Positions 2,717-52,115 of a stretch of 64,000 nt of DNA are shown here, in pieces; positions within the stretch are counted from its first letter, which is position 1; each line of letters begins with the position of its first letter. The stretch lies in the NCBI RefSeq assembly GCF_054482525.1, contig NZ_CM137006.1; one strand, given 5' to 3'. The notes beneath the pieces are model-generated. The model saw only the letters and a program-made list of their open reading frames with translations, made no database searches and was not told where the DNA came from. The translations under genes were made by a program, and so were the position numbers.

Positions 2717-2952
2717 TTTTATGGATCACCTTTCTGATTGATTTTATATTGGCGAGGTAACGGGAGTTAAGTAGAATGGCTGCGGGTGCTTGAGGCTATC
2801 TGTCTCAGGCATGAACACCAAAGGCAGATAGAGAAAAGCCCCAGTTAACATTACGCGTCCTGCAAGACGCTTAACATTAATCTGAGGCTCAATCTATGAA
2901 CGGCAAATCTAGGTTAGCCTCTTACGTGCCGAAAGGCAAGGAGAAGCAGGCT

Positions 2953-3108
2953 ATGAAGCAGCAAAAGGCGATGTTAATCGCCCTGATCGTCATCTGTTTA
3001 ACCGTCATTGTGACGGCACTGGTAACGAGGAAAGACCTCTGCGAGGTACGAATCCGAACCGGCCAGACGGAGGTCGCTGTCTTCACAGCTTACGAACCTG
3101 AGGAGTAA
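2953..3108 (+). CDS. hokD: Hok/Gef-family type I toxin; in-frame Mok-like N-terminal extension begins at 2896
   Basis: MKQQKAMLIALIVICLTVIVTALVTRKDLCEVRIRTGQTEVAVFTAYEPEE (51 aa) matches Hok/Gef/RelF as recalled; GCTTGAGGC leader motif at about 2788-2800. Confidence 0.7.
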   Translation: MKQQKAMLIALIVICLTVIVTALVTRKDLCEVRIRTGQTEVAVFTAYEPEE

Positions 3109-3644: not shown

Positions 3645-3843
3645 TGTATAGCTTGGACGATAAATTATTAGTGAAAACGCCGTAAACCCTCACCCAATGT
3701 GGACTAAGTCTATCAAACATGACTGTGATGATTAGTCCGTAGTTGTTGTCTATGAAATCTGGATTGAGTCAGGGTTTAATCCAATAATTATTCTATCGTT
3801 CCTTTACAAGTCCGGTATATTACTTTCAGTTTGTTTTAGCATA

Positions 3844-3868
3844 CCCGCTTCGGCGGGTTTTGTTTTTT
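3844..3868 (+). terminator. Rho-independent terminator
   Basis: cccgcttcggcggg hairpin followed by a T-run. Confidence 0.5.
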
Positions 3869-4219: not shown

Positions 4220-5270
4220 CGTGCGGATATTACTTCGACCTGTTCTGGTACCGGAACTCGGGCTGGTGGTCCTTAGGCCGGGCCGTGAATCCATGCAAGT
4301 ATTTCATAACCCTCGAGTGCTGGTGGAGCCTGAACCGAAAAGCATGCGCGGTCTGCCGTCCGGAGTCGTCCCTGCCGTTCGCCAGCCGCTGGCGGAGGAT
4401 AAATCATTACTGCCATTTTTCAGCGATGAGCGGGTGATTCGTGCTGCTGGCGGCGCTGGGGCGCTGTCTGACTGGCTGTTGCGTCATGTCAAATCCTGCC
4501 AGTGGCCTCATGGTGACTATCATCACAGTGAAATCGTCATACATCGTTACGGTACCAGCGCGATGGTGTTGTGCTGGCACTGCGACAACCAGTTGCGTGA
4601 CCAGACATCCGAATCACTCGGGCAACTTGCTCATCAAAACCTGTCAGCATGGATGATTGACGTCATACGCCATGCAATGAATGGCACGCAGGAGCGGGAA
4701 TTGTCGCTGGCTGAATTATCTTGGTGGGCGGTCTGCAATCAGGTGGCGGACGCGCTTCCGGAGGCAGTATTACGTCGTTCTCTGGGGGTACGTGCGGAAA
4801 AAATCCGCTCCTTGTACCGCGAAAGCGACATCGTACCGGGAGAGCAGACCGCCACCAGCATACTGAAGCAGCGCACAAAAAATCTTGCGCCGTTGCCTCA
4901 TGCCCACCAGCAACAGAACCCACCACAGGAAAAGACGGTGGTATGCATCACCGTTGATCCGGAGTCTCCGGAATCTTTCATGAGGCGACCTAAACGTCGC
5001 CGTTGGCTAAATGAGAAATATACGCGCTGGGTGAAGACACAGCCGTGTGCGTGTTGTGGTCAGCCAGCCGACGATCCCCATCACCTGATTGGTCACGGTC
5101 AGGGAGGGATGGGAACAAAGGCCCACGATATTTTCACGCTACCGTTGTGCCGGGAACATCACAACGAACTTCATGCGGATCCGCTGGCGTTCGAAGAAAA
5201 GCATGGTTCCCAGGTTGATTTAATTTTTCGTTTTCTTGATCACGCCTTTGCAACCGGCGTGCTCGGGTAA
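4149..5270 (+). CDS. DUF968-like protein with C-terminal HNH-type zinc motif
   Basis: C-terminus CACCGQPADDPHHLIGHGQGGMGTKAHDIFTLPLCREHHNELH; same position as ydfU-type genes upstream of rusA/Q in E. coli prophages; start ambiguous (4149 or 4290). Confidence 0.5.
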   Translation: MSGSLIPNAHRAHPAHTSNGSGGNVRILLRPVLVPELGLVVLRPGRESMQVFHNPRVLVEPEPKSMRGLPSGVVPAVRQPLAEDKSLLPFFSDERVIRAAGGAGALSDWLLRHVKSCQWPHGDYHHSEIVIHRYGTSAMVLCWHCDNQLRDQTSESLGQLAHQNLSAWMIDVIRHAMNGTQERELSLAELSWWAVCNQVADALPEAVLRRSLGVRAEKIRSLYRESDIVPGEQTATSILKQRTKNLAPLPHAHQQQNPPQEKTVVCITVDPESPESFMRRPKRRRWLNEKYTRWVKTQPCACCGQPADDPHHLIGHGQGGMGTKAHDIFTLPLCREHHNELHADPLAFEEKHGSQVDLIFRFLDHAFATGVLG

Positions 5271-5282
5271 AAGAGGTTACTG

Positions 5283-5642
5283 ATGCGTATAGAGTTTGTT
5301 TTGCCTTATCCGCCGACGGTGAATACTTACTGGCGACGTCGTGGCAACACATATTTTGTATCAAAAGTCGGTGAGCGTTATCGCCGTGATGTGGCACTAA
5401 TTGTTCGCCAGCAGCGGTTGAAATTAAACCTGTCCGGAAGGCTGGCAATAAAAATTATTGCAGAGCCACCGGATAAGCGCCGCCGCGACCTGGACAATAT
5501 CCTGAAGGCACCACTGGATGCGCTGACGCATGCCGGACTTCTCATAGACGACGAGCAGTTTGATGAAATCAATATTGTGCGCGGACTGCCTGTTCCTGGT
5601 GGTCGGCTGGGGATAAAAATCACAGAACTGGAGTGCGCATGA
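5283..5642 (+). CDS. rusA: Holliday junction resolvase RusA
   Basis: 119 aa; LPYPPTVNTYW, RRRDLDNILKAPLDAL and GGRLGIKITELE align with RusA as recalled. Confidence 0.8.
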   Translation: MRIEFVLPYPPTVNTYWRRRGNTYFVSKVGERYRRDVALIVRQQRLKLNLSGRLAIKIIAEPPDKRRRDLDNILKAPLDALTHAGLLIDDEQFDEINIVRGLPVPGGRLGIKITELECA

Positions 5643-6328
5643 ATAACCAGTATTTACAGTTTGTGCGTGAGCAGCTCATTATCGCCACCGCTGATTTGAG
5701 TGGGGCAACAAAAGGTCAGCTTGAAGCCTGGCAAGAGAATGCCATGTTCGATACAGGGCGTTACAGGCGAAAAAAAATCCGGTACCGCGATGAAGTGACT
5801 GGAAAAATGATAACGCGGGATAATCCACCAATCCCGGGAAAGCAATCGCTGGCGAAGGGGACGTCAATTCCTCTGGTCAGTCCGGTTGAGTTTTCGACAT
5901 CATCGTGGCGGCGGGCTGTTTTGTCTCTTGAAGAACATCATAAAGCCTGGTTGTTGTGGTGTTACAGCGGGAGTATTTGTTGGGAATATCAGATCGCGAT
6001 AACACAGTGGGCGTGGAATGAATTTAATACTCAATCCGGTACCAGAAAAATTGCAGGGAAAACGCAGGAACGCCTGAAAAAATTAATCTGGCTGGCGGCG
6101 CAGGCAGTAAAAGCAGAACTTTTTGGTGGGGAAGGTTATGAATACCAGGAGCTGGCATTACTGGCGGGAGTGACAACTAAAAACTGGTCCAAAACATTTA
6201 CTCGTCACTGGGTTGCAATGAAACACATTTTTCACCGACTTGATAGTGAGGCTTTATTGTTTGTAATGAGAACACGTTCAAAACAAAAGGCGGCATTTTC
6301 AAAGCAAAGTATTGCAAAAGTAGATTGA
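5633..6328 (+). CDS. Putative late-gene antiterminator (Q-like)
   Basis: 231 aa directly downstream of rusA and upstream of a terminator, tRNA cluster and lysis genes; assignment by position only. Confidence 0.45.
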   Translation: MRMNNQYLQFVREQLIIATADLSGATKGQLEAWQENAMFDTGRYRRKKIRYRDEVTGKMITRDNPPIPGKQSLAKGTSIPLVSPVEFSTSSWRRAVLSLEEHHKAWLLWCYSGSICWEYQIAITQWAWNEFNTQSGTRKIAGKTQERLKKLIWLAAQAVKAELFGGEGYEYQELALLAGVTTKNWSKTFTRHWVAMKHIFHRLDSEALLFVMRTRSKQKAAFSKQSIAKVD

Positions 6329-6393
6329 AAGGCATATATTTCATGCAAATCTGATATTTTGCCGATTTTGTACGTGATGGCAAAAGCAAACAA

Positions 6394-6522: not shown

Positions 6523-6598
6523 GGCCCTTTAGCTCAGTGGTGAGAGCGAGCGACTCATAATCGCCAGGTCGCTGGTTCAAATCCAGCAAGGGCCACCA
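6523..6598 (+). tRNA. tRNA with CAT anticodon (Ile2/Met-type)
   Basis: 76 nt cloverleaf ending CCA; anticodon loop CTCATAA; close to E. coli ileX as recalled. Confidence 0.7.
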
Positions 6599-6599
6599 G

Positions 6600-6676
6600 C
6601 CGCCACTAGCTCATCAGGAAAGAGCGTCAACCCTTTAAGTTGAGTGTGCGAGGTTCGAGTCCCCGGTGGCGGTCCA
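6600..6676 (+). tRNA. Atypical tRNA-like gene (anticodon loop CCTTTAA, UUU with C33); possibly non-canonical or pseudo-tRNA
   Basis: 77 nt; acceptor CCGCCAC/GTGGCGG plus T-CCA; D-arm GCTC/GAGC; T-loop TTCGAGT; one A-C mismatch in T-stem. Confidence 0.4.
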
Positions 6677-6678
6677 GT

Positions 6679-6754
<76 letters not shown>

Positions 6755-6757
6755 TAT

Positions 6758-6832
<75 letters not shown>

Positions 6833-15883: not shown

Positions 15884-15934
15884 TCATTCAGGGGGCGCAG
15901 AAGTGCGCCCCCTGTTCTGACAGGTGAAAGAATC

Positions 15935-16123
15935 ATGATCCTGAAACAAGATCTGAAATGGTCACCGGACGGTATGCGTGTTGAGATTATTCGGGCCGGT
16001 GAGTATGAAGATAAAGAATTACCCGAACGGGTACGCGAAATTGCCACTGCAGCTGGGATTGTCTCTGATAAGAGAACACCTGTTGCGCGGGGGGCTGATA
16101 AGTCTAAAAAACAGCATTCATAG
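15935..16123 (+). CDS. Hypothetical small head-module protein
   Basis: 62-aa ORF with RBS, between capsid and connector genes. Confidence 0.3.
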   Translation: MILKQDLKWSPDGMRVEIIRAGEYEDKELPERVREIATAAGIVSDKRTPVARGADKSKKQHS

Positions 16124-17233: not shown

Positions 17234-17574
17234 GAGAGACCACACTGTATTCCCTGCTGTCTCAACTGGCCGGAGGACAGGTTTATCCTTATGTGGTCCC
17301 GCTGACGGAGGGAAAGCCTGCGGTATCTCCGCCATGGCTGGTATTTTCTGTGGTGTCTGACACTGCGTCTGATGTGCTTGATGGTCAGGCTGAATCCAGA
17401 ATTACCGTGCAGATCGATGTCTGGGCAACAGTACCTGATGACGCAGATGATATCCGTGAGCAGGCGCTTGATGCGGTAAGGCAACTTGCACCCTCCGTTA
17501 TTTCTAAAACTCAGGGTTATGATCCTGATTCCCGTCTGAGCAGAGCCACGCTTGAATTTCAGGTAATAGCCTGA
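17230..17574 (+). CDS. Tail completion-like protein
   Basis: 114 aa; gene order. Confidence 0.45.
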   Translation: MRETTLYSLLSQLAGGQVYPYVVPLTEGKPAVSPPWLVFSVVSDTASDVLDGQAESRITVQIDVWATVPDDADDIREQALDAVRQLAPSVISKTQGYDPDSRLSRATLEFQVIA

Positions 17575-17633
17575 GGTCGTTAATGATTTTACCCACCCGC
17601 CGCTGGCGGGTTTTTTATTTTCAGGAGACGAGT

Positions 17634-18338
17634 ATGTCCTCTAATTTTGAGCGTTCGCAACTGACGAAAATTATGATTTCGTCTGCACCGGTAACAGCAG
17701 AAACCCTGGATTCTGCCAGCTATCTTGGCCTGAGCTGTACAATCAAAGAGGTGCAGTTTACCGCAGGACAAAAGCAGGATATTGATGTCACCACGCTGTG
17801 TTCTGTTGAGCAGGAAAATATTAACGGCCTTGGTGCCGCGTCAGAGATTTCCATGTCAGGCAACTTTTACCTCAATGCTGCCCAGAACGCGTTGCGCAGT
17901 GCCTATGACAATGACACCACGTATGGCTTTAAAGTTATTTTTCCGTCAGGCAACGGATTTACCTTTATGGCAGAGGTGCGTCAGCATACCTGGTCTGCAG
18001 GAACTAATGGTGTTGTGGCTGCAACGTTTTCCCTGCGCCTGAAAGGTAAACCTGTGCTGACGACAGAGCCGCTGAAAGTGAAGGTCGATTTAAACAGCAC
18101 GCTGCAGGTTTCTGCCGGAGCGAAACTCGAAATGGTGGTTGAGGCTGCCGGTGGTGTGCCGCCTTATTCTTATGTCTGGAAGAAAGGTAGTTCTCCTGTT
18201 TCCGGACAGACGGCGGCAACATTCAGTAAGGCATCAGCAGCATCAGGTGATGCCGGTGCGTATACCTGCGAGATTTCTGATTCAGCAAGCCCTGTTAACA
18301 AGGTGACCTCCACTTCCTGCACTGTTACCGTCAGTTAA
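17634..18338 (+). CDS. Major tail protein with C-terminal Ig-like domain
   Basis: ATG at 17634 with RBS aggaga; preceded by hairpin plus T-run at 17598-17620. Confidence 0.7.
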   Translation: MSSNFERSQLTKIMISSAPVTAETLDSASYLGLSCTIKEVQFTAGQKQDIDVTTLCSVEQENINGLGAASEISMSGNFYLNAAQNALRSAYDNDTTYGFKVIFPSGNGFTFMAEVRQHTWSAGTNGVVAATFSLRLKGKPVLTTEPLKVKVDLNSTLQVSAGAKLEMVVEAAGGVPPYSYVWKKGSSPVSGQTAATFSKASAASGDAGAYTCEISDSASPVNKVTSTSCTVTVS

Positions 18339-18724
18339 TGAGGATAGATGTGATGACTAAAAATATCCGCAATCTGGCACTGGCAACGATGTCGGGGTTT
18401 CGCCATAAAACTGTTGATGTGCCTGAATGGGAAGGGGCAACGGTTGTATTACGGGAACCTTCTGCAGAAGCCTGGTTGCGCTGGCAGGAGATCGTTAAAG
18501 CAAAAGATGATGAGACACCGTTATCCGTTGCGGAGCGCGCCCGCCGAAATCTGGAGGCAGATGTTGAACTGTTCATTGATGTTCTGTGTGATACCGGACT
18601 GCAACCTGTATTTTCAGAGGATGATCGTGAACAGGTGATTGCCGTGTATGGCCCGGTGCATGCGCGGCTTCTTCGGCAGTCTCTGGAACTGATCAGTGAT
18701 GCCGGCGAGGTTAAAAAAAAGTAG
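18338..18724 (+). CDS. G: Tail assembly chaperone (lambda G-like)
   Basis: 128 aa; ends in slippery GTT AAA AAA AAG TAG. Confidence 0.7.
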   Translation: MRIDVMTKNIRNLALATMSGFRHKTVDVPEWEGATVVLREPSAEAWLRWQEIVKAKDDETPLSVAERARRNLEADVELFIDVLCDTGLQPVFSEDDREQVIAVYGPVHARLLRQSLELISDAGEVKKK

Positions 18725-19026
18725 AGCTTCCGGGGATGCGTTTTCTGATGATGCTGGCGCTCAGGATGGGGCGCACATTGTCAGAGTTACGCCGGGAAAT
18801 GTCCGCATCAGAAATCATGATGTGGGCAGAATTTGACAGGTTCAGCCCGCTGGGTGACGAGCGGGCTGATATCCGGGCTGCCCAGATAGTTTCTGCGGTT
18901 TACGGTGCGCAGGGTGTCAAAGTCCCACTGAATGATGCGCTTCTTCAGTGGGAACAAGAGCAGACAGAAGGCGTCTCAGATCCATTTGCCGGACTGGAAA
19001 ACGCGCTTTTAATAGTGTCTCAGTGA
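18715..19026 (+). CDS. Tail assembly chaperone extension (T-like), expressed as G-T fusion by -1 frameshift
   Basis: A AAA AAG at 18715-18721; the -1 frame is open from 18721 through ORF 18736-19026. Confidence 0.6.
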   Translation, partial: KKVELPGMRFLMMLALRMGRTLSELRREMSASEIMMWAEFDRFSPLGDERADIRAAQIVSAVYGAQGVKVPLNDALLQWEQEQTEGVSDPFAGLENALLIVSQ

Positions 19027-19065
19027 GTCAACATAACCGCTTCGGCGGTTTTTTTCGTCCGGAGA

Positions 19066-22000
19066 ATGAGTGTGGCGACATTACGTGAACTGATTATTAA
19101 AATCTCGGCAAATTCCCGGTCATTCCAGTCAGAGATCTCCCGGGCTTCGCGTATGGGGCAGGATTACTACCGTACCATGCAGAACGGAGGCCGGCAGTCC
19201 GCTGCTGCATCCCGTGAAATGCGGCGTGCACTGGCAGAAGTGACGGATCAGATAAATACAGCTAAATCTTCGGCACTGAATATGGCGGGGGCATTTGCCG
19301 GAGCTTTTGCTACCGGTCATCTTATTTCTCTCGCCGATGAGTGGAATTCAGTAAATGCCCGTCTGAAGCAGGCTTCACAGTCCAGTGATGATTTTCAGGT
19401 ATCACAACGTGAATTAATGGCAATCAGCCAGAGAACGGGAACGGCGTTTTCTGATAACGCCAGCCTTTTTGCCCGCTCTGCAGCTTCCATGCGGGAGTAT
19501 GGCTACAGTTCTGAGGAGGTACTGAAAGTCACCGAGGCGATCTCCACGGGCCTGAAATTATCCGGTGCCAGTACAGCAGAAGCCAGTTCGGTGATCACGC
19601 AGTTCAGTCAGGCACTGGCGCAGGGAGTGCTGCGCGGTGAAGAATTTAACGCTGTGAATGAGAACGGCGATCGTGTTATTCGTGCGCTGGCTGCGGGAAT
19701 GGGTGTTGCCCGTAAGGATCTGAAGGCCATGGCGGATAACGGAAAACTGACCGCCGATAAGGTTGTTCCTGCACTGATTAGTCAGCTTGGGGCGTTGCGT
19801 GATGAATATGCAGCAATGCCTGATACTGTTTCATCCTCTGCAACCAAAGTTGAAAACGCCTTTATGGCCTGGGTTGGTGGTGCGAACGAGGCAAGCGGAG
19901 TGACAAAGACACTCACCGGGGTGTTGAATGGTGTTGCAGACAATATTGATACCGTGGCTGCTGCAGCTGGCGCACTGGTTGCCGTCGGGGTAGCCCGATA
20001 TTTTGGCAATATGGCGTCGTCTGCTGGATCTGCAACTGCCGGATTAATTACTGCATCCAGAAACGAAGTGGCTCTTGCTGAAGCGCAACTTCGGGGGACA
20101 CAGATAGCAACCGCCAGGGCGCGTGCGGCGGTTTATCGTGCGCAACAGGCGGTTGTTGCTGCTCGCGGTACCGAAAGGCAGGCCGCAGCAGAAGCGAAGC
20201 TGACAGCTGCCCAGGCGTCACTTACCCGTAATATTGCGGCCAGAACAGCGGCACAGACAACGCTGAATACTGTCACGTCAGTGGGGAGTCGTCTGTTAAG
20301 TGGTGCGCTGGGGTTGGTTGGTGGTGTGCCGGGACTCGTCATGCTGGGGGCGACGGCCTGGTACACGATGTATCAGAATCAGGAGCAGGCCAGAGAATCT
20401 GCACGCCAGTATGCCGCAACAATCGACGAAATTCGCCAGAAAACGTCGGCAATGTCGCTTCCTGAAGCGTCAGATAATGAGGAAAAGACGCGGCAGGCAC
20501 TTGATGAGCAAAACAGGTTAATTGACGAGCAGAAAAGTAAGATTAAATCCTTACAGGAAAAAATTGCTGGCTATCAGTATGTGCTGGCAAACCCGGGCTG
20601 GACAACCGATAACGGTTTTATGATTAACCACATGACGTCGGTAAAAACTGTCACAGAAGGGCTTGCAGAAGCAACAAATCAACTGGCAGTTGAACAGTCC
20701 CGTCTCACACAAATGCAGGGCAAAGCGCAATCCATTCAGGATGTGCTTGCCGGGCTGGAGGAGCGACGGGTGGCGTTGATCCGTCAACAGGCCGCGGAAC
20801 AAAACAAAGCGTATCAGTCCCTGTTGATCATGAATGGGCAGCATACCGAGTTTAATCGCCTTCTCGGGCTCGGTAATGAATTACTTCAGCAGCGACAGGG
20901 GCTGGTGAATGTACCGTTACGGCTACCACAGGCAACCCTGGATGATAAACAGCAGACCGCACTGAATAACAGCGAGCGCGAACTGGCTCTGTCCCGCCTG
21001 AAGGGGGAAGCCCGTGAGCGTGCCCGCCTGGGTTATGCTGCGGATGATCTCGGCTTTGTGGGAGAGGCGTATCAGACAGCCAGACAGAATTATATCAATA
21101 CCTCACTGGATGCCTGGCGAAATAACCAGGTAAATAAACCCAAAGCGCATAAAAAGACCGAAGCGGAAAAAACAGAAGATATTTATAAACGGCTGATTAA
21201 ACAGCAAAAAGAACAAATAGCACTGGCAGGGCAGAATACTGAACTGGCTAAGATGAAATATCAGGTCAGTCAGGGCGAATTATCAACCCTGTCAGAAGCG
21301 CAGAAAAAAACGCTTTTGCAGAATGCAGCACTTATCGACCAGAAAAAGATTCGTGAGCAGCTTGCTGCGTATGAGAGCAGTCTGGCGGACAGTAATGCCA
21401 GTGCCCGGGCATCTGACGAAGCGCAGTTGTTGGGATATGGTGAAGGCTCACGGATGCGTGAACGACTCCAGGAAATGTGGAGTATCCGGCAGGCGTTTGA
21501 GCAGAAAAATAACGAGCTACTGAGACAGTATCAGGCCGGAGAAATTGAAGAAGCCCTGTGGAAACAGGAAAAATCGCTGAATGAAAAATATCTGGAAGAG
21601 CGTCTCAGCGATCAGCAGGATTATTATGCAAAGGCTGATGCTTTACGCAGTGACTGGAATGCCGGCCTCCAGGAGGGACTGACGAACTGGGCAGACAGTG
21701 CCACCGATTATGCTTCGCAGGCGGCAGATGCTGTCGTTTCCACTATGGACGGGCTGGTATCAAATATTTCCGATGCACTGGCCGGAAATGTTGTGGACTG
21801 GCGAAACTGGGGGAGTTCAATTCTCCAGGAAGTTTCAAAAATTCTGATGAACGCTGCCATCGTTAACGGGCTGAAGTCACTTTCCAAAAGCATGTCCGGT
21901 GCCGGAGGATGGCTTGGTACGGTCGGCGACTGGCTTTCCGGTGCAGTGGCAAACGCAAAAGGTGGTGTTTATACATCTGCAAATCTGAGTGCTTACAGTA

Positions 22001-22311
22001 ACACCATTGTGGATACCCCGACGTATTTTGCTTTTGCGAAAGGTGCCGGGCTGATGGGCGAGGCCGGGCCTGAAGCTATCATGCCACTGACCCGGGCAGC
22101 GGACGGCTCTCTTGGAGTCAGAGCCATTGGCAATGTGAATGGTGGCGGGGGATTTGTTTATTCTCCCGTGTATCACATCAGTATTCAGAATAAAGGGAGC
22201 AATGGCGAGATAGATACGCAGTCAGCCAGGGGGCTGGTGGATCTGATCGACAGCAGGGTTGTGTCAATTATGCAGTCATCACGTCGGGACGGAGGATTAT
22301 ACAGTGCCTGA
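19066..22311 (+). CDS. Tail tape measure protein
   Basis: 1081 aa, alpha-helical, follows the G/T chaperones. Confidence 0.85.
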   Translation: MSVATLRELIIKISANSRSFQSEISRASRMGQDYYRTMQNGGRQSAAASREMRRALAEVTDQINTAKSSALNMAGAFAGAFATGHLISLADEWNSVNARLKQASQSSDDFQVSQRELMAISQRTGTAFSDNASLFARSAASMREYGYSSEEVLKVTEAISTGLKLSGASTAEASSVITQFSQALAQGVLRGEEFNAVNENGDRVIRALAAGMGVARKDLKAMADNGKLTADKVVPALISQLGALRDEYAAMPDTVSSSATKVENAFMAWVGGANEASGVTKTLTGVLNGVADNIDTVAAAAGALVAVGVARYFGNMASSAGSATAGLITASRNEVALAEAQLRGTQIATARARAAVYRAQQAVVAARGTERQAAAEAKLTAAQASLTRNIAARTAAQTTLNTVTSVGSRLLSGALGLVGGVPGLVMLGATAWYTMYQNQEQARESARQYAATIDEIRQKTSAMSLPEASDNEEKTRQALDEQNRLIDEQKSKIKSLQEKIAGYQYVLANPGWTTDNGFMINHMTSVKTVTEGLAEATNQLAVEQSRLTQMQGKAQSIQDVLAGLEERRVALIRQQAAEQNKAYQSLLIMNGQHTEFNRLLGLGNELLQQRQGLVNVPLRLPQATLDDKQQTALNNSERELALSRLKGEARERARLGYAADDLGFVGEAYQTARQNYINTSLDAWRNNQVNKPKAHKKTEAEKTEDIYKRLIKQQKEQIALAGQNTELAKMKYQVSQGELSTLSEAQKKTLLQNAALIDQKKIREQLAAYESSLADSNASARASDEAQLLGYGEGSRMRERLQEMWSIRQAFEQKNNELLRQYQAGEIEEALWKQEKSLNEKYLEERLSDQQDYYAKADALRSDWNAGLQEGLTNWADSATDYASQAADAVVSTMDGLVSNISDALAGNVVDWRNWGSSILQEVSKILMNAAIVNGLKSLSKSMSGAGGWLGTVGDWLSGAVANAKGGVYTSANLSAYSNTIVDTPTYFAFAKGAGLMGEAGPEAIMPLTRAADGSLGVRAIGNVNGGGGFVYSPVYHISIQNKGSNGEIDTQSARGLVDLIDSRVVSIMQSSRRDGGLYSA

Positions 22312-28111: not shown

Positions 28112-28138
28112 GGGCGCCAGAAATGGCGCCTTTTTTAT
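28112..28138 (+). terminator. Rho-independent terminator after J
   Basis: ggcgccagaaatggcgcc hairpin followed by a T-run. Confidence 0.55.
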
Positions 28139-28160
28139 TGCAGAAAAGCGAGAGGTAATT

Positions 28161-28760
28161 ATGCGTAAATTATGTGCTGTTATTCTGTCCGCAGTAGTCT
28201 GGCTGGTTGCCGCTGGTACGCCAGCGAGCGCAGCAGAGCATCAGTCCACACTAAGCGCCGGGTATCTTCAGACCCATACTGATATGCCAGGCAGCGATGA
28301 CCTGAAGGGCATTAATGTGAAATACCGTTATGAATTTACGGACACGCTGGGGCTGGTGACGTCATTCAGTTATGCCAATGCCAAAGATGAGCAAAAAACG
28401 CATTACAGCGATACCCGCTGGCATGAAGATTCAGTGCGTAACCGCTGGTTCAGCATGATGGCGGGGCCATCTGTACGCGTGAATGAATGGTTCAGTGCTT
28501 ATGCGATGGCAGGTGTGGCTTACAGCCGTGTTTCGACTTTTTCCGGGGATTATCTCCGCGTAACTGACAGCAAGGGGAAAACGAACGATGTGCTGACCGG
28601 AAGTGATGATGATCGCCACAGCAACACGTCTCTGGCGTGGGGAACTGGCGTGCAGTTTAACCCGACCGAATCCGTGGCCGTTGATATTGCTTATGAAGGT
28701 TCCGGCAGTGGCGACTGGCGCACTGACGGTTTCATCGTGGGTGTCGGTTATAAATTCTGA
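28161..28760 (+). CDS. lom: Lom-like outer membrane protein (Ail/Lom family)
   Basis: 199 aa; signal peptide, beta-barrel pattern, C-terminal GVGYKF. Confidence 0.8.
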   Translation: MRKLCAVILSAVVWLVAAGTPASAAEHQSTLSAGYLQTHTDMPGSDDLKGINVKYRYEFTDTLGLVTSFSYANAKDEQKTHYSDTRWHEDSVRNRWFSMMAGPSVRVNEWFSAYAMAGVAYSRVSTFSGDYLRVTDSKGKTNDVLTGSDDDRHSNTSLAWGTGVQFNPTESVAVDIAYEGSGSGDWRTDGFIVGVGYKF

Positions 28761-28786
28761 TTAGCCAGGTAACACAGTGTTATGAC

Positions 28787-28815
28787 AGCCCGCCGGTTCA
28801 GGCGGGCTTTTTTGT
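28787..28815 (+). terminator. Rho-independent terminator after lom
   Basis: agcccgccggttcaggcgggct hairpin followed by a T-run. Confidence 0.55.
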
Positions 28816-43292: not shown

Positions 43293-43839
43293 TATGTATT
43301 CCCTTGTGATTATAATCTTCATGAATATATCAATAAGTGCTGTTATCCAAAAAAAAGCACATTTGGATACTATTCTATGAAGTTCATTTTATTTTAAAGA
43401 TTACATGTAACAAATGTATTTAAAAGATTTCAAAATGTTTCCAATCTATTTAATATAATTCAGAATTATGAATTCTAAATATAAGCATTCATGAAAATTA
43501 TAAATACATATCAATATGTTATGAGTTGAGCGGAAATATAGGGGGTATCAATGATTGTTGCGCCAAACGGCTGGTGTGATCACGCGCACATTAATGAAGA
43601 CATAAAAAAAGCCGGCATCATGCCGGCCCAAAAAATATAAACAAGACGATAAAAGGCTAATAACGGAAGCATCATGACACAGAATAATAAAAAGGGATAA
43701 TTGTAATCAGTGCTAATATATTGATCGAATGAATTAATAAAGCCGATATCAAAGATAAATAAAATCGCTCAAAACGATTTTTCCTGTATTCACTGCCATT
43801 GCGCAAAAATTATCTATTTGTTCAAAAAATGATTGAGTC

Positions 43840-52028: not shown

Positions 52029-52115
52029 AACACATCAGATTTCCTGGTGTAACGAATTTTTTAAGTGCTTCTTGCTTAAGCAAGTTTCATCCCGACCCCC
52101 TCAGGGTCGGGATTT
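52029..52115 (+). ncRNA. dsrA: DsrA small regulatory RNA
   Basis: aacacatcagatttcctggtgtaacgaattttttaagtgcttcttgcttaagcaagtttcatcccgaccccctcagggtcgggattt matches DsrA as recalled; ends in a terminator. Confidence 0.85.

What the first reader, a model, noticed from the sequence alone, without database searches (positions are those of the whole stretch)
18700..19060. Programmed -1 frameshift site for tail chaperone G-T, followed by an unexpected terminator before the tape measure gene
Seen: gene G ends GTT AAA AAA AAG TAG and the -1 frame is open from 18721 through ORF 18736-19026, the conserved G/G-T arrangement. A hairpin plus T-run at about 19035-19056 sits between T and the tape measure gene, which is unusual inside a late operon and might attenuate downstream expression.
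Basis: partly seen in the sequence, partly recalled or inferred. Interest (0 to 1): 0.3.

Follow-up and report, generated by a model that had tools for sequence, protein, structure and literature searches.

The report
Tail chaperone frameshift plus resident terminator
An E. coli prophage of the HK97 type carries the standard slippery site that makes two tail-assembly chaperones from one gene, followed by a small transcription terminator that is a regular fixture of this phage family (the spot where relatives carry extra "moron" genes), so the finding is real but ordinary.

Summary
Both observations are in the sequence. Gene G (18353-18724) ends GTT AAA AAA AAG TAG. The -1 frame opens at 18715, just after its own TAA stop, and runs to 19026. 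The two frames therefore overlap by exactly 7 nt, the heptamer A AAA AAG. G matches Pfam Phage_TAC_1 (E 2e-58) and the -1 segment matches Phage_tail_T (E 3e-19). Conservation of T starts at the slip site, upstream of any Met in relatives. This is the known lambda/HK97 G/G-T programmed -1 frameshift, though neither PGAP nor the close phage records annotate it here.

The hairpin AACCGC-UUCG-GCGGUU with a U-run (19035-19055) is also real, but it is not unusual. The HK97 record annotates four putative terminators inside its late operon, one directly before the tape measure gene. A hairpin with a U-run sits at this junction in 13 of 18 lineages compared, with about eight different stems. In relatives, AT-rich cargo genes (HK97 gp15 and at least three other kinds) lie between the T stop and this terminator. 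The window is an empty copy of that slot.

A Q antiterminator (5633-6328) is present. Tail-fibre genes lie beyond two stronger terminators that flank lom. Read-through during lytic growth is therefore expected. Attenuation remains untested.

The parts
5633..6328 (+). Q-type late antitermination protein gene
   Evidence: Pfam PF06323 Phage_antiter_Q, E 8.6e-92. It lies upstream of the tRNA cluster, the lysis genes and the whole late operon.
17595..17621 (+). Terminator-like hairpin ACCCGCC-GCT-GGCGGGT followed by TTTTTATTTT, between the tail-terminator gene (ends 17574) and the major tail gene
   Evidence: It sits at the same position as the 'putative terminator' annotated at 6692-6719 in HK97 and in HK446.
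17634..18338 (+). Major tail tube protein gene (V equivalent) with a C-terminal Ig-like domain
   Evidence: Weak Pfam matches to Phage_TTP_11, Phage_tail_2 and Ig_2. The start follows PGAP.
18353..18724 (+). Gene G, tail assembly chaperone, 123 aa, zero frame
   Evidence: Pfam PF06222 Phage_TAC_1, E 2.4e-58, residues 1-123 against profile positions 1-124. Translation.
18715..18721 (+). Slippery heptamer A AAA AAG, which is the entire 0/-1 frame overlap. It is bounded by the -1-frame TAA (18712-14) and the 0-frame TAG (18722-24), and lies within a run of 8 A (18713-18720).
   Evidence: The same GTT AAA AAA AAG TAG occurs in 58 of 79 IMG/VR relatives. A AAA AAG also occurs in phage 2851 and Stx phages, phi1026b and PHB09.
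18721..19026 (+). T segment, read in the -1 frame as the C-terminal 101 aa of a 224-aa G-T fusion
   Evidence: Pfam PF06223 Phage_tail_T, E 3.1e-19. Protein conservation (KKVxxPGxRFLMxLALR) begins at the slip site, before the first ATG (18736). HK97 and 2851 have no Met at that column.
18728..18797 (+). Predicted stem-loop 6 nt downstream of the heptamer; a possible frameshift stimulator, not established
   Evidence: -31.7 kcal/mol, z -3.5, 0 of 200 shuffles as good. The apical helix is invariant but lies in a conserved protein motif. The extended helix is only 76% paired across relatives.
19035..19055 (+). Intrinsic-terminator-like element: 6-bp stem AACCGC/GCGGUU, C(UUCG)G tetraloop, and a run of 7 U
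   Evidence: It is identical in 57 close relatives, with T7, T8 or T9 runs. The identical hairpin sits behind four kinds of cargo gene in other relatives. Different stems occupy the same junction in 2851, Stx2_EH1910, mEp390, PHB09, Mcat23, HK97 and Klebsiella phages.
19061..22311 (+). Shine-Dalgarno GGAG (19061-64) and the tape measure gene H (GTG 19072 to 22311)
   Evidence: Pfam TMP_3, Phage_HK97_TLTM and Tape_meas_lam_C. PGAP places the start at 19072.
28112..28813 (+). Second example in the same operon: a Lom/Ail-like moron gene (28161-28760) bracketed by two strong terminators (28112-28131 and 28787-28808), with tail-fibre genes downstream
   Evidence: 8-bp stems with 6-7 GC pairs, followed by T5. 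PGAP annotation.

Best explanation
The window carries the late operon of an HK97-like lambdoid prophage of E. coli.

(1) Frameshift. Ribosomes translating the tail assembly chaperone gene G mostly stop at TAG 18722, giving the 123-aa G protein. A minority slip back one base on A AAA AAG (18715-18721), where tRNA-Lys re-pairs from AAG to AAA. They then read GTA GAG CTT ... to 19026 and make a 224-aa G-T fusion. As in lambda, G and G-T would coat the tape measure protein and recruit the major tail protein in a fixed, G-rich ratio. The anatomy is shown here. The slippage itself and the ratio are inferred from the family.

(2) Terminator. The hairpin and U-run at 19035-19055 is a Rho-independent terminator that belongs to the region just upstream of the tape measure gene in this phage family.
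- In the prophage state, with no Q, it would stop any transcript entering from upstream. That includes transcripts of the AT-rich cargo ('moron') genes that many relatives carry between the T stop codon and this hairpin. The tape measure and tail-tip genes therefore stay silent.
- In lytic growth, RNA polymerase modified by the phage Q protein would read through it, as it must also read through the terminators before the major tail gene and around lom.
- The window is an empty version of the slot: the terminator is present without cargo or promoter.

Any residual attenuation, or stabilisation of the 3' end of the V-G-T message, is possible but not shown.
For: Frameshift:
- Pfam assigns G to Phage_TAC_1 (E 2e-58) and the -1 ORF to Phage_tail_T (E 3e-19). 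Both lie between the major tail gene and the tape measure gene.
- The two frames overlap by only the 7-nt heptamer.
- tblastn with the fused 224-aa protein finds two-piece, two-frame matches covering at least 80% of the query in 198 phage records.
- The A-site codon is always AAG preceded by A. The heptamers seen are A AAA AAG, G GGA AAG and G GAA AAG.
- T-frame conservation starts at the slip site, and HK97 and 2851 lack a Met there.
- The HK97, HK446 and Bcep176 records annotate the -1 frameshift.
- The mechanism and the 30:1 ratio in lambda are described in PMC5009743.

Terminator:
- The fold is -8.5 kcal/mol, z -2.7.
- HK97 and HK446 annotate a terminator immediately before H and two or three others in the late operon.
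- A hairpin with a U-run lies directly before H in 13 of 18 lineages, with about eight different stem sequences, including phages of Bordetella and Moraxella.
- In cargo-bearing relatives, homology with the window resumes exactly at the hairpin. The cargo has GC 0.29-0.39 against 0.50-0.58 in the flanks.
- HK97 gene 15, between the chaperone and tape measure genes, is the founding moron (PMC3594210).
- Q is present in the window.
- Lambda Q, of the same functional class, blocks formation of terminator hairpins in RNA polymerase (PMC9388147).
- The lom-like gene is flanked by terminators, with tail-fibre genes downstream.
Against: - There are no expression data. Neither the frameshift efficiency nor termination at 19055 has been measured.
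- The hairpin is short (4 GC + 2 AU pairs) and at the weak end for terminators.
- The loose terminator pattern is frequent by chance in this region.
- HK022 and three Burkholderia relatives have no hairpin at this junction, so it is not essential to the tail module.
- The A8 run could also yield G-T through transcriptional slippage.
- The close relatives are nearly identical at both sites and add no independent support. That support comes from the more distant lineages.
Confidence: 0.78

Rival explanations
1. T is a separate gene translated from its own start (ATG 18736, or ATG 18748 as PGAP annotates), and no frameshift is involved.
For: PGAP and the close phage records (Evi, 606R7) annotate a free-standing T ORF. 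An ATG exists at 18736.
Against: Conserved T residues, including an invariant Pro and the KKV/GKV motif, lie upstream of that ATG. HK97 has Val and 2851 has Ile at the Met column. No usable Shine-Dalgarno is present: GGGG abuts the ATG at 18736. The -1 frame opens exactly at a slippery heptamer in all lineages. In lambda the T domain only functions when fused to G (PMC5009743).
Confidence: 0.04
2. G-T arises mainly from transcriptional slippage. RNA polymerase adds one extra A on the A8 run (18713-18720), and normal translation of that mRNA then gives the fusion.
For: A run of 8 A is present, and two relatives have 9 A (AAA AAA AAA TAG). Homopolymer length varies among contigs (A7 in L022 and L066). 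It is established that slippage on runs of about 9 A or T is used in bacteria and IS elements (reviewed in PMC5009743).
Against: Relatives that make the same fusion use G GGA AAG or G GAA AAG, with only 3-4 A. Those sites cannot support polymerase slippage, so the family mechanism is ribosomal. A AAA AAG is the classic high-efficiency ribosomal site of E. coli dnaX. A run of 8 A is below the length at which transcriptional slippage is usually efficient (own knowledge).
Confidence: 0.1
3. The hairpin is a functional attenuator even in lytic growth. Partial termination, or stabilisation of the 3' end of the V-G-T message, would lower tape measure and tail-tip transcripts relative to the high-copy tail tube and chaperone genes.
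For: The position fits the stoichiometry: V and G are needed in large amounts, H to J in few copies. The element is kept in cargo-free lineages from E. coli to Bordetella and Moraxella phages, with different stems. Hairpins also follow the major capsid gene (15888-15911; HK97 5192-5213).
Against: Q-loaded polymerase is terminator-resistant (PMC9388147). A similar or stronger terminator sits before the major tail gene (17595), which would lower V and runs against a pure stoichiometry logic. HK022 and the Burkholderia relatives do without the element. There are no expression data.
Confidence: 0.2
4. The hairpin is a scar. An ancestor carried a complete moron (promoter, gene, terminator) and lost the promoter and gene, leaving a functionless terminator.
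For: Morons are defined as carrying their own terminator (PMC3594210). The identical hairpin follows cargo genes in relatives with 81-89% identical T. The same 21-mer follows small lipoprotein or membrane ORFs in about 28 unrelated phage contexts.
Against: The hairpin type tracks the 5' flank of H, not the cargo. Four unrelated cargo genes share one hairpin, and HK97 (with cargo) and mEp390 (without) share a flank and a similar stem. Cargo-free lineages with other stems exist down to 37% protein identity. A control hairpin of the same design is equally widespread, so recurrence of the 21-mer does not prove mobility.
Confidence: 0.25

Closest known systems
Lambda G/G-T (and HK97 gp13/gp14) tail assembly chaperone programmed -1 frameshift (Levin et al. 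1993; Xu, Hendrix and Duda 2004, 2013, 2014)
   Same: The gene order is major tail, then G, then T in the -1 frame, then tape measure. A slippery heptamer ending in A AAG lies near the end of G. T has no start of its own. Both halves match the Pfam families Phage_TAC_1 and Phage_tail_T.
   Different: The heptamer is A AAA AAG rather than lambda's G GGA AAG. HK97 reads G GAA AAG in its zero frame. The overlap is the minimum possible, 7 nt, with the zero-frame stop directly after the heptamer. T does not overlap H as it does in lambda; a 45-nt gap with a terminator follows instead.
E. coli dnaX gamma/tau -1 frameshift site
   Same: The heptamer A AAA AAG is identical and is decoded by the single tRNA-Lys(UUU). 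A predicted stem-loop begins 6 nt downstream.
   Different: There is no Shine-Dalgarno-like stimulator at about 10 nt upstream; the only GAGG lies 4 nt upstream. The downstream structure is not supported by clear covariation. Here the product is extended, whereas in dnaX it is truncated.
HK97 gene 15 moron (Juhala et al. 2000; Cumby et al. 2012) and its terminator before the tape measure gene
   Same: The junction is the same, between the T stop and the start of H. An intrinsic terminator lies 10-20 nt before H. Relatives of the window carry AT-rich, prophage-type cargo at exactly this place.
   Different: The window has no cargo gene and no promoter. Only 8 nt separate the T stop from the hairpin. 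The stem sequence also differs: AACCGC/UUCG here against ACCCGC/UAUCAA in HK97.
Lambda lom and bor type morons flanked by terminators, and Q-dependent read-through of the late operon
   Same: Terminators lie inside a Q-controlled late operon of about 26 kb. A lom-like gene bracketed by terminators is present in the same window.
   Different: Lambda itself has no terminator between T and H, because those genes overlap.

Membership tests
G/G-T tail assembly chaperone -1 programmed frameshift (Xu et al. 2004) | Two ORFs between the major tail gene and the tape measure gene, with the second in the -1 frame relative to the first | tested here: met
   V 17634-18338, G 18353-18724, -1 ORF to 19026, H from 19072.
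G/G-T tail assembly chaperone -1 programmed frameshift (Xu et al. 2004) | Slippery heptamer X XXY YYZ, in the zero frame, within the frame overlap | tested here: met
   A AAA AAG at 18715-18721 is the whole overlap. Equivalent heptamers occur in relatives.
G/G-T tail assembly chaperone -1 programmed frameshift (Xu et al. 2004) | Homology of both halves to the chaperone G and T families | tested here: met
   PF06222 E 2.4e-58 and PF06223 E 3.1e-19. Two-frame tblastn matches in 198 phage records.
G/G-T tail assembly chaperone -1 programmed frameshift (Xu et al. 2004) | The downstream segment has no independent initiation, and conservation extends to the shift site | tested here: met
   Alignment A1: conserved KKVxxPG lies upstream of the first Met, and HK97 and 2851 have no Met at that column. 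No Shine-Dalgarno precedes ATG 18736.
G/G-T tail assembly chaperone -1 programmed frameshift (Xu et al. 2004) | The fusion protein is actually produced at a low, fixed ratio | not testable with these tools
   This needs mass spectrometry, a western blot or a reporter assay.
dnaX-type stimulated frameshift cassette | Internal Shine-Dalgarno-like element about 10 nt upstream of the heptamer | tested here: not met
   The only candidate, GAGG at 18707-18710, is 4 nt upstream.
dnaX-type stimulated frameshift cassette | Stable stem-loop 5-9 nt downstream of the heptamer | tested here: inconclusive
   Predicted structure at 18728-18797: -31.7 kcal/mol, z -3.5. Across 14 relatives only the apical helix is kept, without covariation and inside a conserved peptide motif. 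The extended helix is 76% paired.
Rho-independent (intrinsic) terminator | GC-rich hairpin immediately followed by a U-tract, in an intergenic position on the coding strand | tested here: met
   19035-19055: 6-bp stem with 4 GC pairs, a UUCG loop and 7 U, in the 45-nt T-H gap.
Rho-independent (intrinsic) terminator | Conservation of structure rather than sequence at the same site in relatives | tested here: met
   About eight different stems lie directly before H in 13 of 18 lineages.
Rho-independent (intrinsic) terminator | RNA 3' ends form there, and termination efficiency has been measured | not testable with these tools
   This needs Term-seq or in vitro transcription.
Moron (Juhala et al. 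2000; PMC3594210) | An extra gene absent from related phages, with deviant GC content | tested here: not met
   The window has only 8 nt between the T stop and the hairpin. Relatives have cargo of 367-414 nt with GC 0.29-0.39.
Moron (Juhala et al. 2000; PMC3594210) | Own promoter | tested here: not met
   There is no room for a promoter and no promoter-like site between 19027 and 19034. The nearest hit (19075-19103, 9 of 12 matches) lies inside H, and promoter-like sites in the region are fewer than the shuffle expectation.
Moron (Juhala et al. 2000; PMC3594210) | Own terminator | tested here: met
   The hairpin at 19035-19055 is identical to the one that closes the cargo cassettes in L069, L074, L076 and L080.

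The most novel reading that the evidence does not exclude
The terminator in front of the tape measure gene may not be baggage brought in by morons. It may instead be a resident, positionally conserved element of HK97-type tail operons, kept with or without cargo in phages of Escherichia, Klebsiella, Bordetella and Moraxella.

On this reading it would do two things:
- It would create a safe landing site where AT-rich, prophage-expressed genes can be inserted without switching on the tail-tip genes.
- It would trim or stabilise the V-G-T message relative to the H-J message during lytic growth, despite Q.

This would mean the founding example of a 'moron' borrowed its terminator from the host phage.
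Probability: 0.25. Interest if true: 0.4.

Novelty: new member of a known kind. Interest (0 to 1): 0.15.

Why it matters
This matters mainly for annotation. RefSeq/PGAP and the deposited close phage genomes (Evi, phi467 and the vB_Eco series) list G and T as separate genes, and some place the starts of the major tail or tape measure genes across or next to terminators. The G-T fusion should be annotated as a ribosomal-slippage product.

The comparative result has modest biological interest. It shows the T/H junction as a recurrent cargo slot closed by a shared terminator, carrying at least four unrelated cargo genes as well as an empty state. This gives a simple natural system for asking whether moron terminators are imported or resident. 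It also marks a place to look for new prophage-expressed membrane proteins of the superinfection-exclusion type.

Tried and rejected
1. SD-sequestering alternative fold. In the window, CUUCGGCGG (19040-48) can pair with UCG.CCGGAG (19055-64) and hide the tape measure Shine-Dalgarno (MFE -13.6). The region's z-score is only -0.64, and the alternative fold does not appear in any other hairpin type. Rejected.

2. Downstream frameshift-stimulating stem-loop (18728-18797). It is significant in the window alone. The consensus fold keeps only an invariant apical helix inside the conserved LALRLGR coding motif, and the rest is 76% paired. Left as inconclusive.

3. The hairpin as a mobile 'moron terminator'. 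The exact 21-mer occurs in at least 120 IMG/VR stretches, about 40 of them in unrelated contexts behind small lipoprotein or membrane ORFs. A control hairpin of the same design (AAGCCC-TTCG-GGGCTT) is just as widespread, while another control (AACGCC...) is rare. Recurrence therefore cannot separate mobility from a generic minimal design.

4. Upstream Shine-Dalgarno-like stimulator. GAGG lies only 4 nt from the heptamer, which is the wrong spacing for -1 stimulation.

5. Rfam gathering scan of the window. It returned only sok, DsrA, rseX and four tRNAs, with nothing at the site.

6. A promoter restarting transcription after the terminator. Only a 9-of-12 match was found, inside H, and promoter-like sites in the region are below the shuffle expectation.

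7. Cumby et al. 2012 (PMC3430355) is not held in the library. Juhala et al. 2000 was not consulted directly; its content was taken from the HK97 GenBank features and from PMC3594210.

Full report
WHAT THE REGION IS

Window 8000-30000 is 100% identical to a prophage in the chromosome of E. coli strain 405. The region 17500-19400 is 96-99% identical to temperate coliphages Evi, phi467 and several vB_Eco phages.

Pfam places the surrounding genes in an HK97-type late operon (PGAP annotation). In order, these are:
- head completion, an HK97-gp10-like gene and tail completion gp17;
- a major tail protein with an Ig-like domain;
- Phage_TAC_1 and Phage_tail_T;
- a tape measure protein with the HK97_TLTM domain, and minor tail protein M.

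A Q antiterminator (PF06323, E 9e-92) lies upstream at 5633-6328.

CHECKING THE OBSERVATION

- Gene G (ATG 18353, 123 aa) ends GTT AAA AAA AAG TAG.
- The -1 frame carries a TAA at 18712-18714.
- The two frames overlap by 7 nt, and those 7 nt are A AAA AAG.
- The hairpin is 19035-19050 (AACCGC, UUCG, GCGGUU). It has a run of 7 T at 19049-19055, folds at -8.5 kcal/mol, and has z = -2.7.
- The tape measure gene most likely begins at GTG 19072, 7 nt after GGAG, and not at ATG 19066.
- Neither motif is rare on its own. AAAAAAG occurs 28 times in the window. The loose terminator pattern occurs 25 times in 19 kb, against 18.8 expected. The case therefore rests on context and conservation.

THE FRAMESHIFT

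A 224-aa fusion built by a -1 slip at the heptamer finds two-piece, two-frame tblastn matches covering at least 80% of its length in 198 phage records. These include HK97-like coliphages, Stx phages, and phages of Klebsiella, Cronobacter, Bordetella and Burkholderia.

I located the frame overlap in thirteen loci. Every lineage has a codon AAG preceded by A at the shift position:
- A AAA AAG in the window clade, in 2851 and Stx phages, in phi1026b and in PHB09;
- G GGA AAG in HK022 and mEp390;
- G GAA AAG in HK97, HK446 and ENT39118;
- A GCA AAG in a Klebsiella phage.

Of 79 IMG/VR relatives, 58 have the window's exact GTT AAA AAA AAG TAG.

An alignment of the -1-frame products shows conservation (KKVxxPGxRFLMxLALR) starting at the slip site. 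That is upstream of the window's first ATG, and HK97 has Val and 2851 has Ile at that column. Independent initiation is therefore not a family property.

The HK97, HK446 and Bcep176 records annotate the -1 frameshift explicitly. PGAP and the close phage records do not. The function of G and G-T and their 30:1 ratio in lambda are reviewed in PMC5009743.

A stem-loop is predicted 6 nt downstream (-31.7 kcal/mol, z -3.5). Across relatives, only an invariant apical helix inside a conserved peptide motif survives. A stimulatory structure is therefore not established.

The A8 run leaves room for a contribution from transcriptional slippage. Relatives with only 3-4 A make the same fusion, so the family mechanism is ribosomal.

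THE TERMINATOR

The HK97 record annotates putative terminators at four places: after the major capsid gene, before the major tail gene, after it, and immediately before the tape measure gene. HK446 annotates three of these.

The window has counterparts:
- a 10-bp hairpin after the capsid gene (15888-15911), though without a U-run;
- a strong terminator at 17595-17611 before the major tail gene;
- the element in question.

Folding the gap between T and the tape measure gene in 18 lineages gives the following:
- 13 lineages have a hairpin with a U-run directly before the tape measure start, with about eight different stems. Examples are AACCGC, ACCUGC, GCCCGC, GGCCCGC, ACCCGC, GCCCCAC, GCCUGC and GCCCAG. 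Two of these lineages are phages of Bordetella and Moraxella.
- ENT39118 has only a weak, long-loop hairpin.
- HK022 and three Burkholderia phages have no hairpin at all.

Such an element is therefore typical of this family, not unusual. Late gene clusters delimited by predicted terminators are also described for SPP1 (PMC6316719).

THE SLOT

In HK97 the space between T and this terminator holds gene 15. This was the first element to be called a moron and is a superinfection-exclusion gene of the YebO family (PMC3594210; Pfam).

Relatives of the window carry other cargo at the same place:
- a 113-aa membrane protein with a zinc ribbon;
- a 123-aa lipoprotein-like protein;
- a 99-aa secreted protein;
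- a YebO-like gene in Klebsiella phages.

The cargo is 367-414 nt long and AT-rich (GC 0.29-0.39 against 0.50-0.58 in the flanks). Homology with the window resumes exactly at the hairpin.

Four unrelated cargo genes share the window's identical hairpin. HK97 (with cargo) and mEp390 (without) share both the 5' flank of the tape measure gene and a similar stem. The hairpin therefore tracks the tape measure flank rather than the cargo.

A scan for the exact 21-mer found at least 120 stretches:
- about 45 empty junctions like the window's;
- about 35 junctions with cargo;
- about 40 in unrelated contexts, usually behind a small lipoprotein or membrane ORF and just before a late structural gene.

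Control scans showed that a hairpin of the same design with another core is equally widespread, while a third is rare. Recurrence of the 21-mer therefore does not prove that it is mobile.

HOW IT MOST LIKELY WORKS

Without Q, in the prophage state, the terminator would stop any transcript coming from upstream, including moron transcripts in relatives. The tape measure and tail-tip genes would stay off.

With Q, the polymerase is made resistant to terminator hairpins (PMC9388147) and would read through. The window gives internal support for this. A lom-like gene at 28161-28760 is bracketed by two stronger terminators, and tail-fibre genes follow them. The operon therefore cannot be expressed without read-through.

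Residual attenuation, or stabilisation of the V-G-T message, would fit protein stoichiometry. It is contradicted in part by the terminator that precedes the major tail gene, and it cannot be tested here.

VERDICT

The frameshift interpretation is correct and is a known kind, unannotated in this clade. The terminator is real, but it is a regular feature of the family and marks an empty moron slot. Interest is low. The only mildly new point is that the terminator appears to be resident rather than imported with the cargo.

Noticed in passing
window 6523-6832: Four tRNA genes lie between Q and the lysis genes: CAU (Met, or Ile2 as PGAP calls it), Lys-UUU, Thr-UGU and Gly-UCC. The phage-borne tRNA-Lys(UUU) reads the codons of the A AAA AAG slip site and would be made in late infection. 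Whether it alters frameshift efficiency is unknown.
   Followed up: partly
window 17583-17634: The mechanical ORF, and the phage records for Evi and 606R7, start the major tail gene at 17583. That places the strong terminator hairpin (17595-17611) inside the gene. PGAP starts it at 17634, after the hairpin and a GGAG, which fits HK97's layout. The earlier start is probably a misannotation.
   Followed up: partly
window 15884-16123: A 10-bp GC-rich hairpin (AGGGGGCGCA-GAAG-UGCGCCCCCU, 15888-15911) follows the major capsid gene, where HK97 annotates a terminator. Here it has no U-run. A 62-aa ORF with no Pfam match (15935-16123) then sits between the capsid and connector genes. HK97 has no such ORF, so it may be another inserted gene.
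   Followed up: partly
window 28112-28813: A Lom/Ail-family outer-membrane gene (28161-28760) is bracketed by two strong terminators (28112-28131 and 28787-28808), between gene J and the tail-fibre genes. This is a classic moron arrangement in the same operon.
   Followed up: partly
L003 (HK97) 2833-2841; L006 (Klebsiella P7641) 1896-1905; L008 (ENT39118): Counting from the annotated G start, the zero-frame codons at the HK97 shift site are CGG GAA AAG. The heptamer is therefore G GAA AAG, not lambda's G GGA AAG. Klebsiella phage P7641 has a 7-nt overlap reading A GCA AAG, which is not a canonical tandem-slippery site and suggests single-tRNA-Lys slippage.
   Followed up: no
L022, L066 (A7); L059, L067 (A9) at about 1490-1510: The homopolymer length at the slip site varies among near-identical contigs. 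Two have 7 A, which puts T out of reach of a -1 shift; this is either sequencing error or an inactivated prophage. Two have AAA AAA AAA TAG. The terminator T-run also varies (T7, T8, T9).
   Followed up: partly
L094-L213 (IMG/VR), e.g. L107, L173, L200, L121, L155: The exact 21-mer terminator recurs in about 28 unrelated sequence contexts. It usually lies 4-25 nt after a small lipoprotein, membrane or zinc-ribbon ORF, and 10-20 nt before a late structural gene (gpI-like, side tail fibre, or other tape measure proteins). It is often followed by YYGGAG and a start codon.
   Followed up: partly
window 3843-3863: A second hairpin of the same design (ACCCGC-TTCG-GCGGGT followed by TTTGT) lies in the early region, about 900 nt downstream of the sok match at 2784-2958.
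   Followed up: no
window 5283-6379 versus L013: The window's Q gene (231 aa, PF06323) does not correspond to the 273-aa 'antitermination protein' annotated at the equivalent offset in strain 405. Translating those coordinates in the window gives stop codons. The 100% identity was only established for 8000-30000, so there may be a mosaic boundary upstream of the tRNA cluster.
   Followed up: no
window 2784-2958, 43604-43693, 52029-52115: Rfam finds a sok antitoxin RNA in the prophage early region, beside a hokD-type toxin. It also finds the host sRNAs rseX and DsrA in the chromosomal flank.
   Followed up: no
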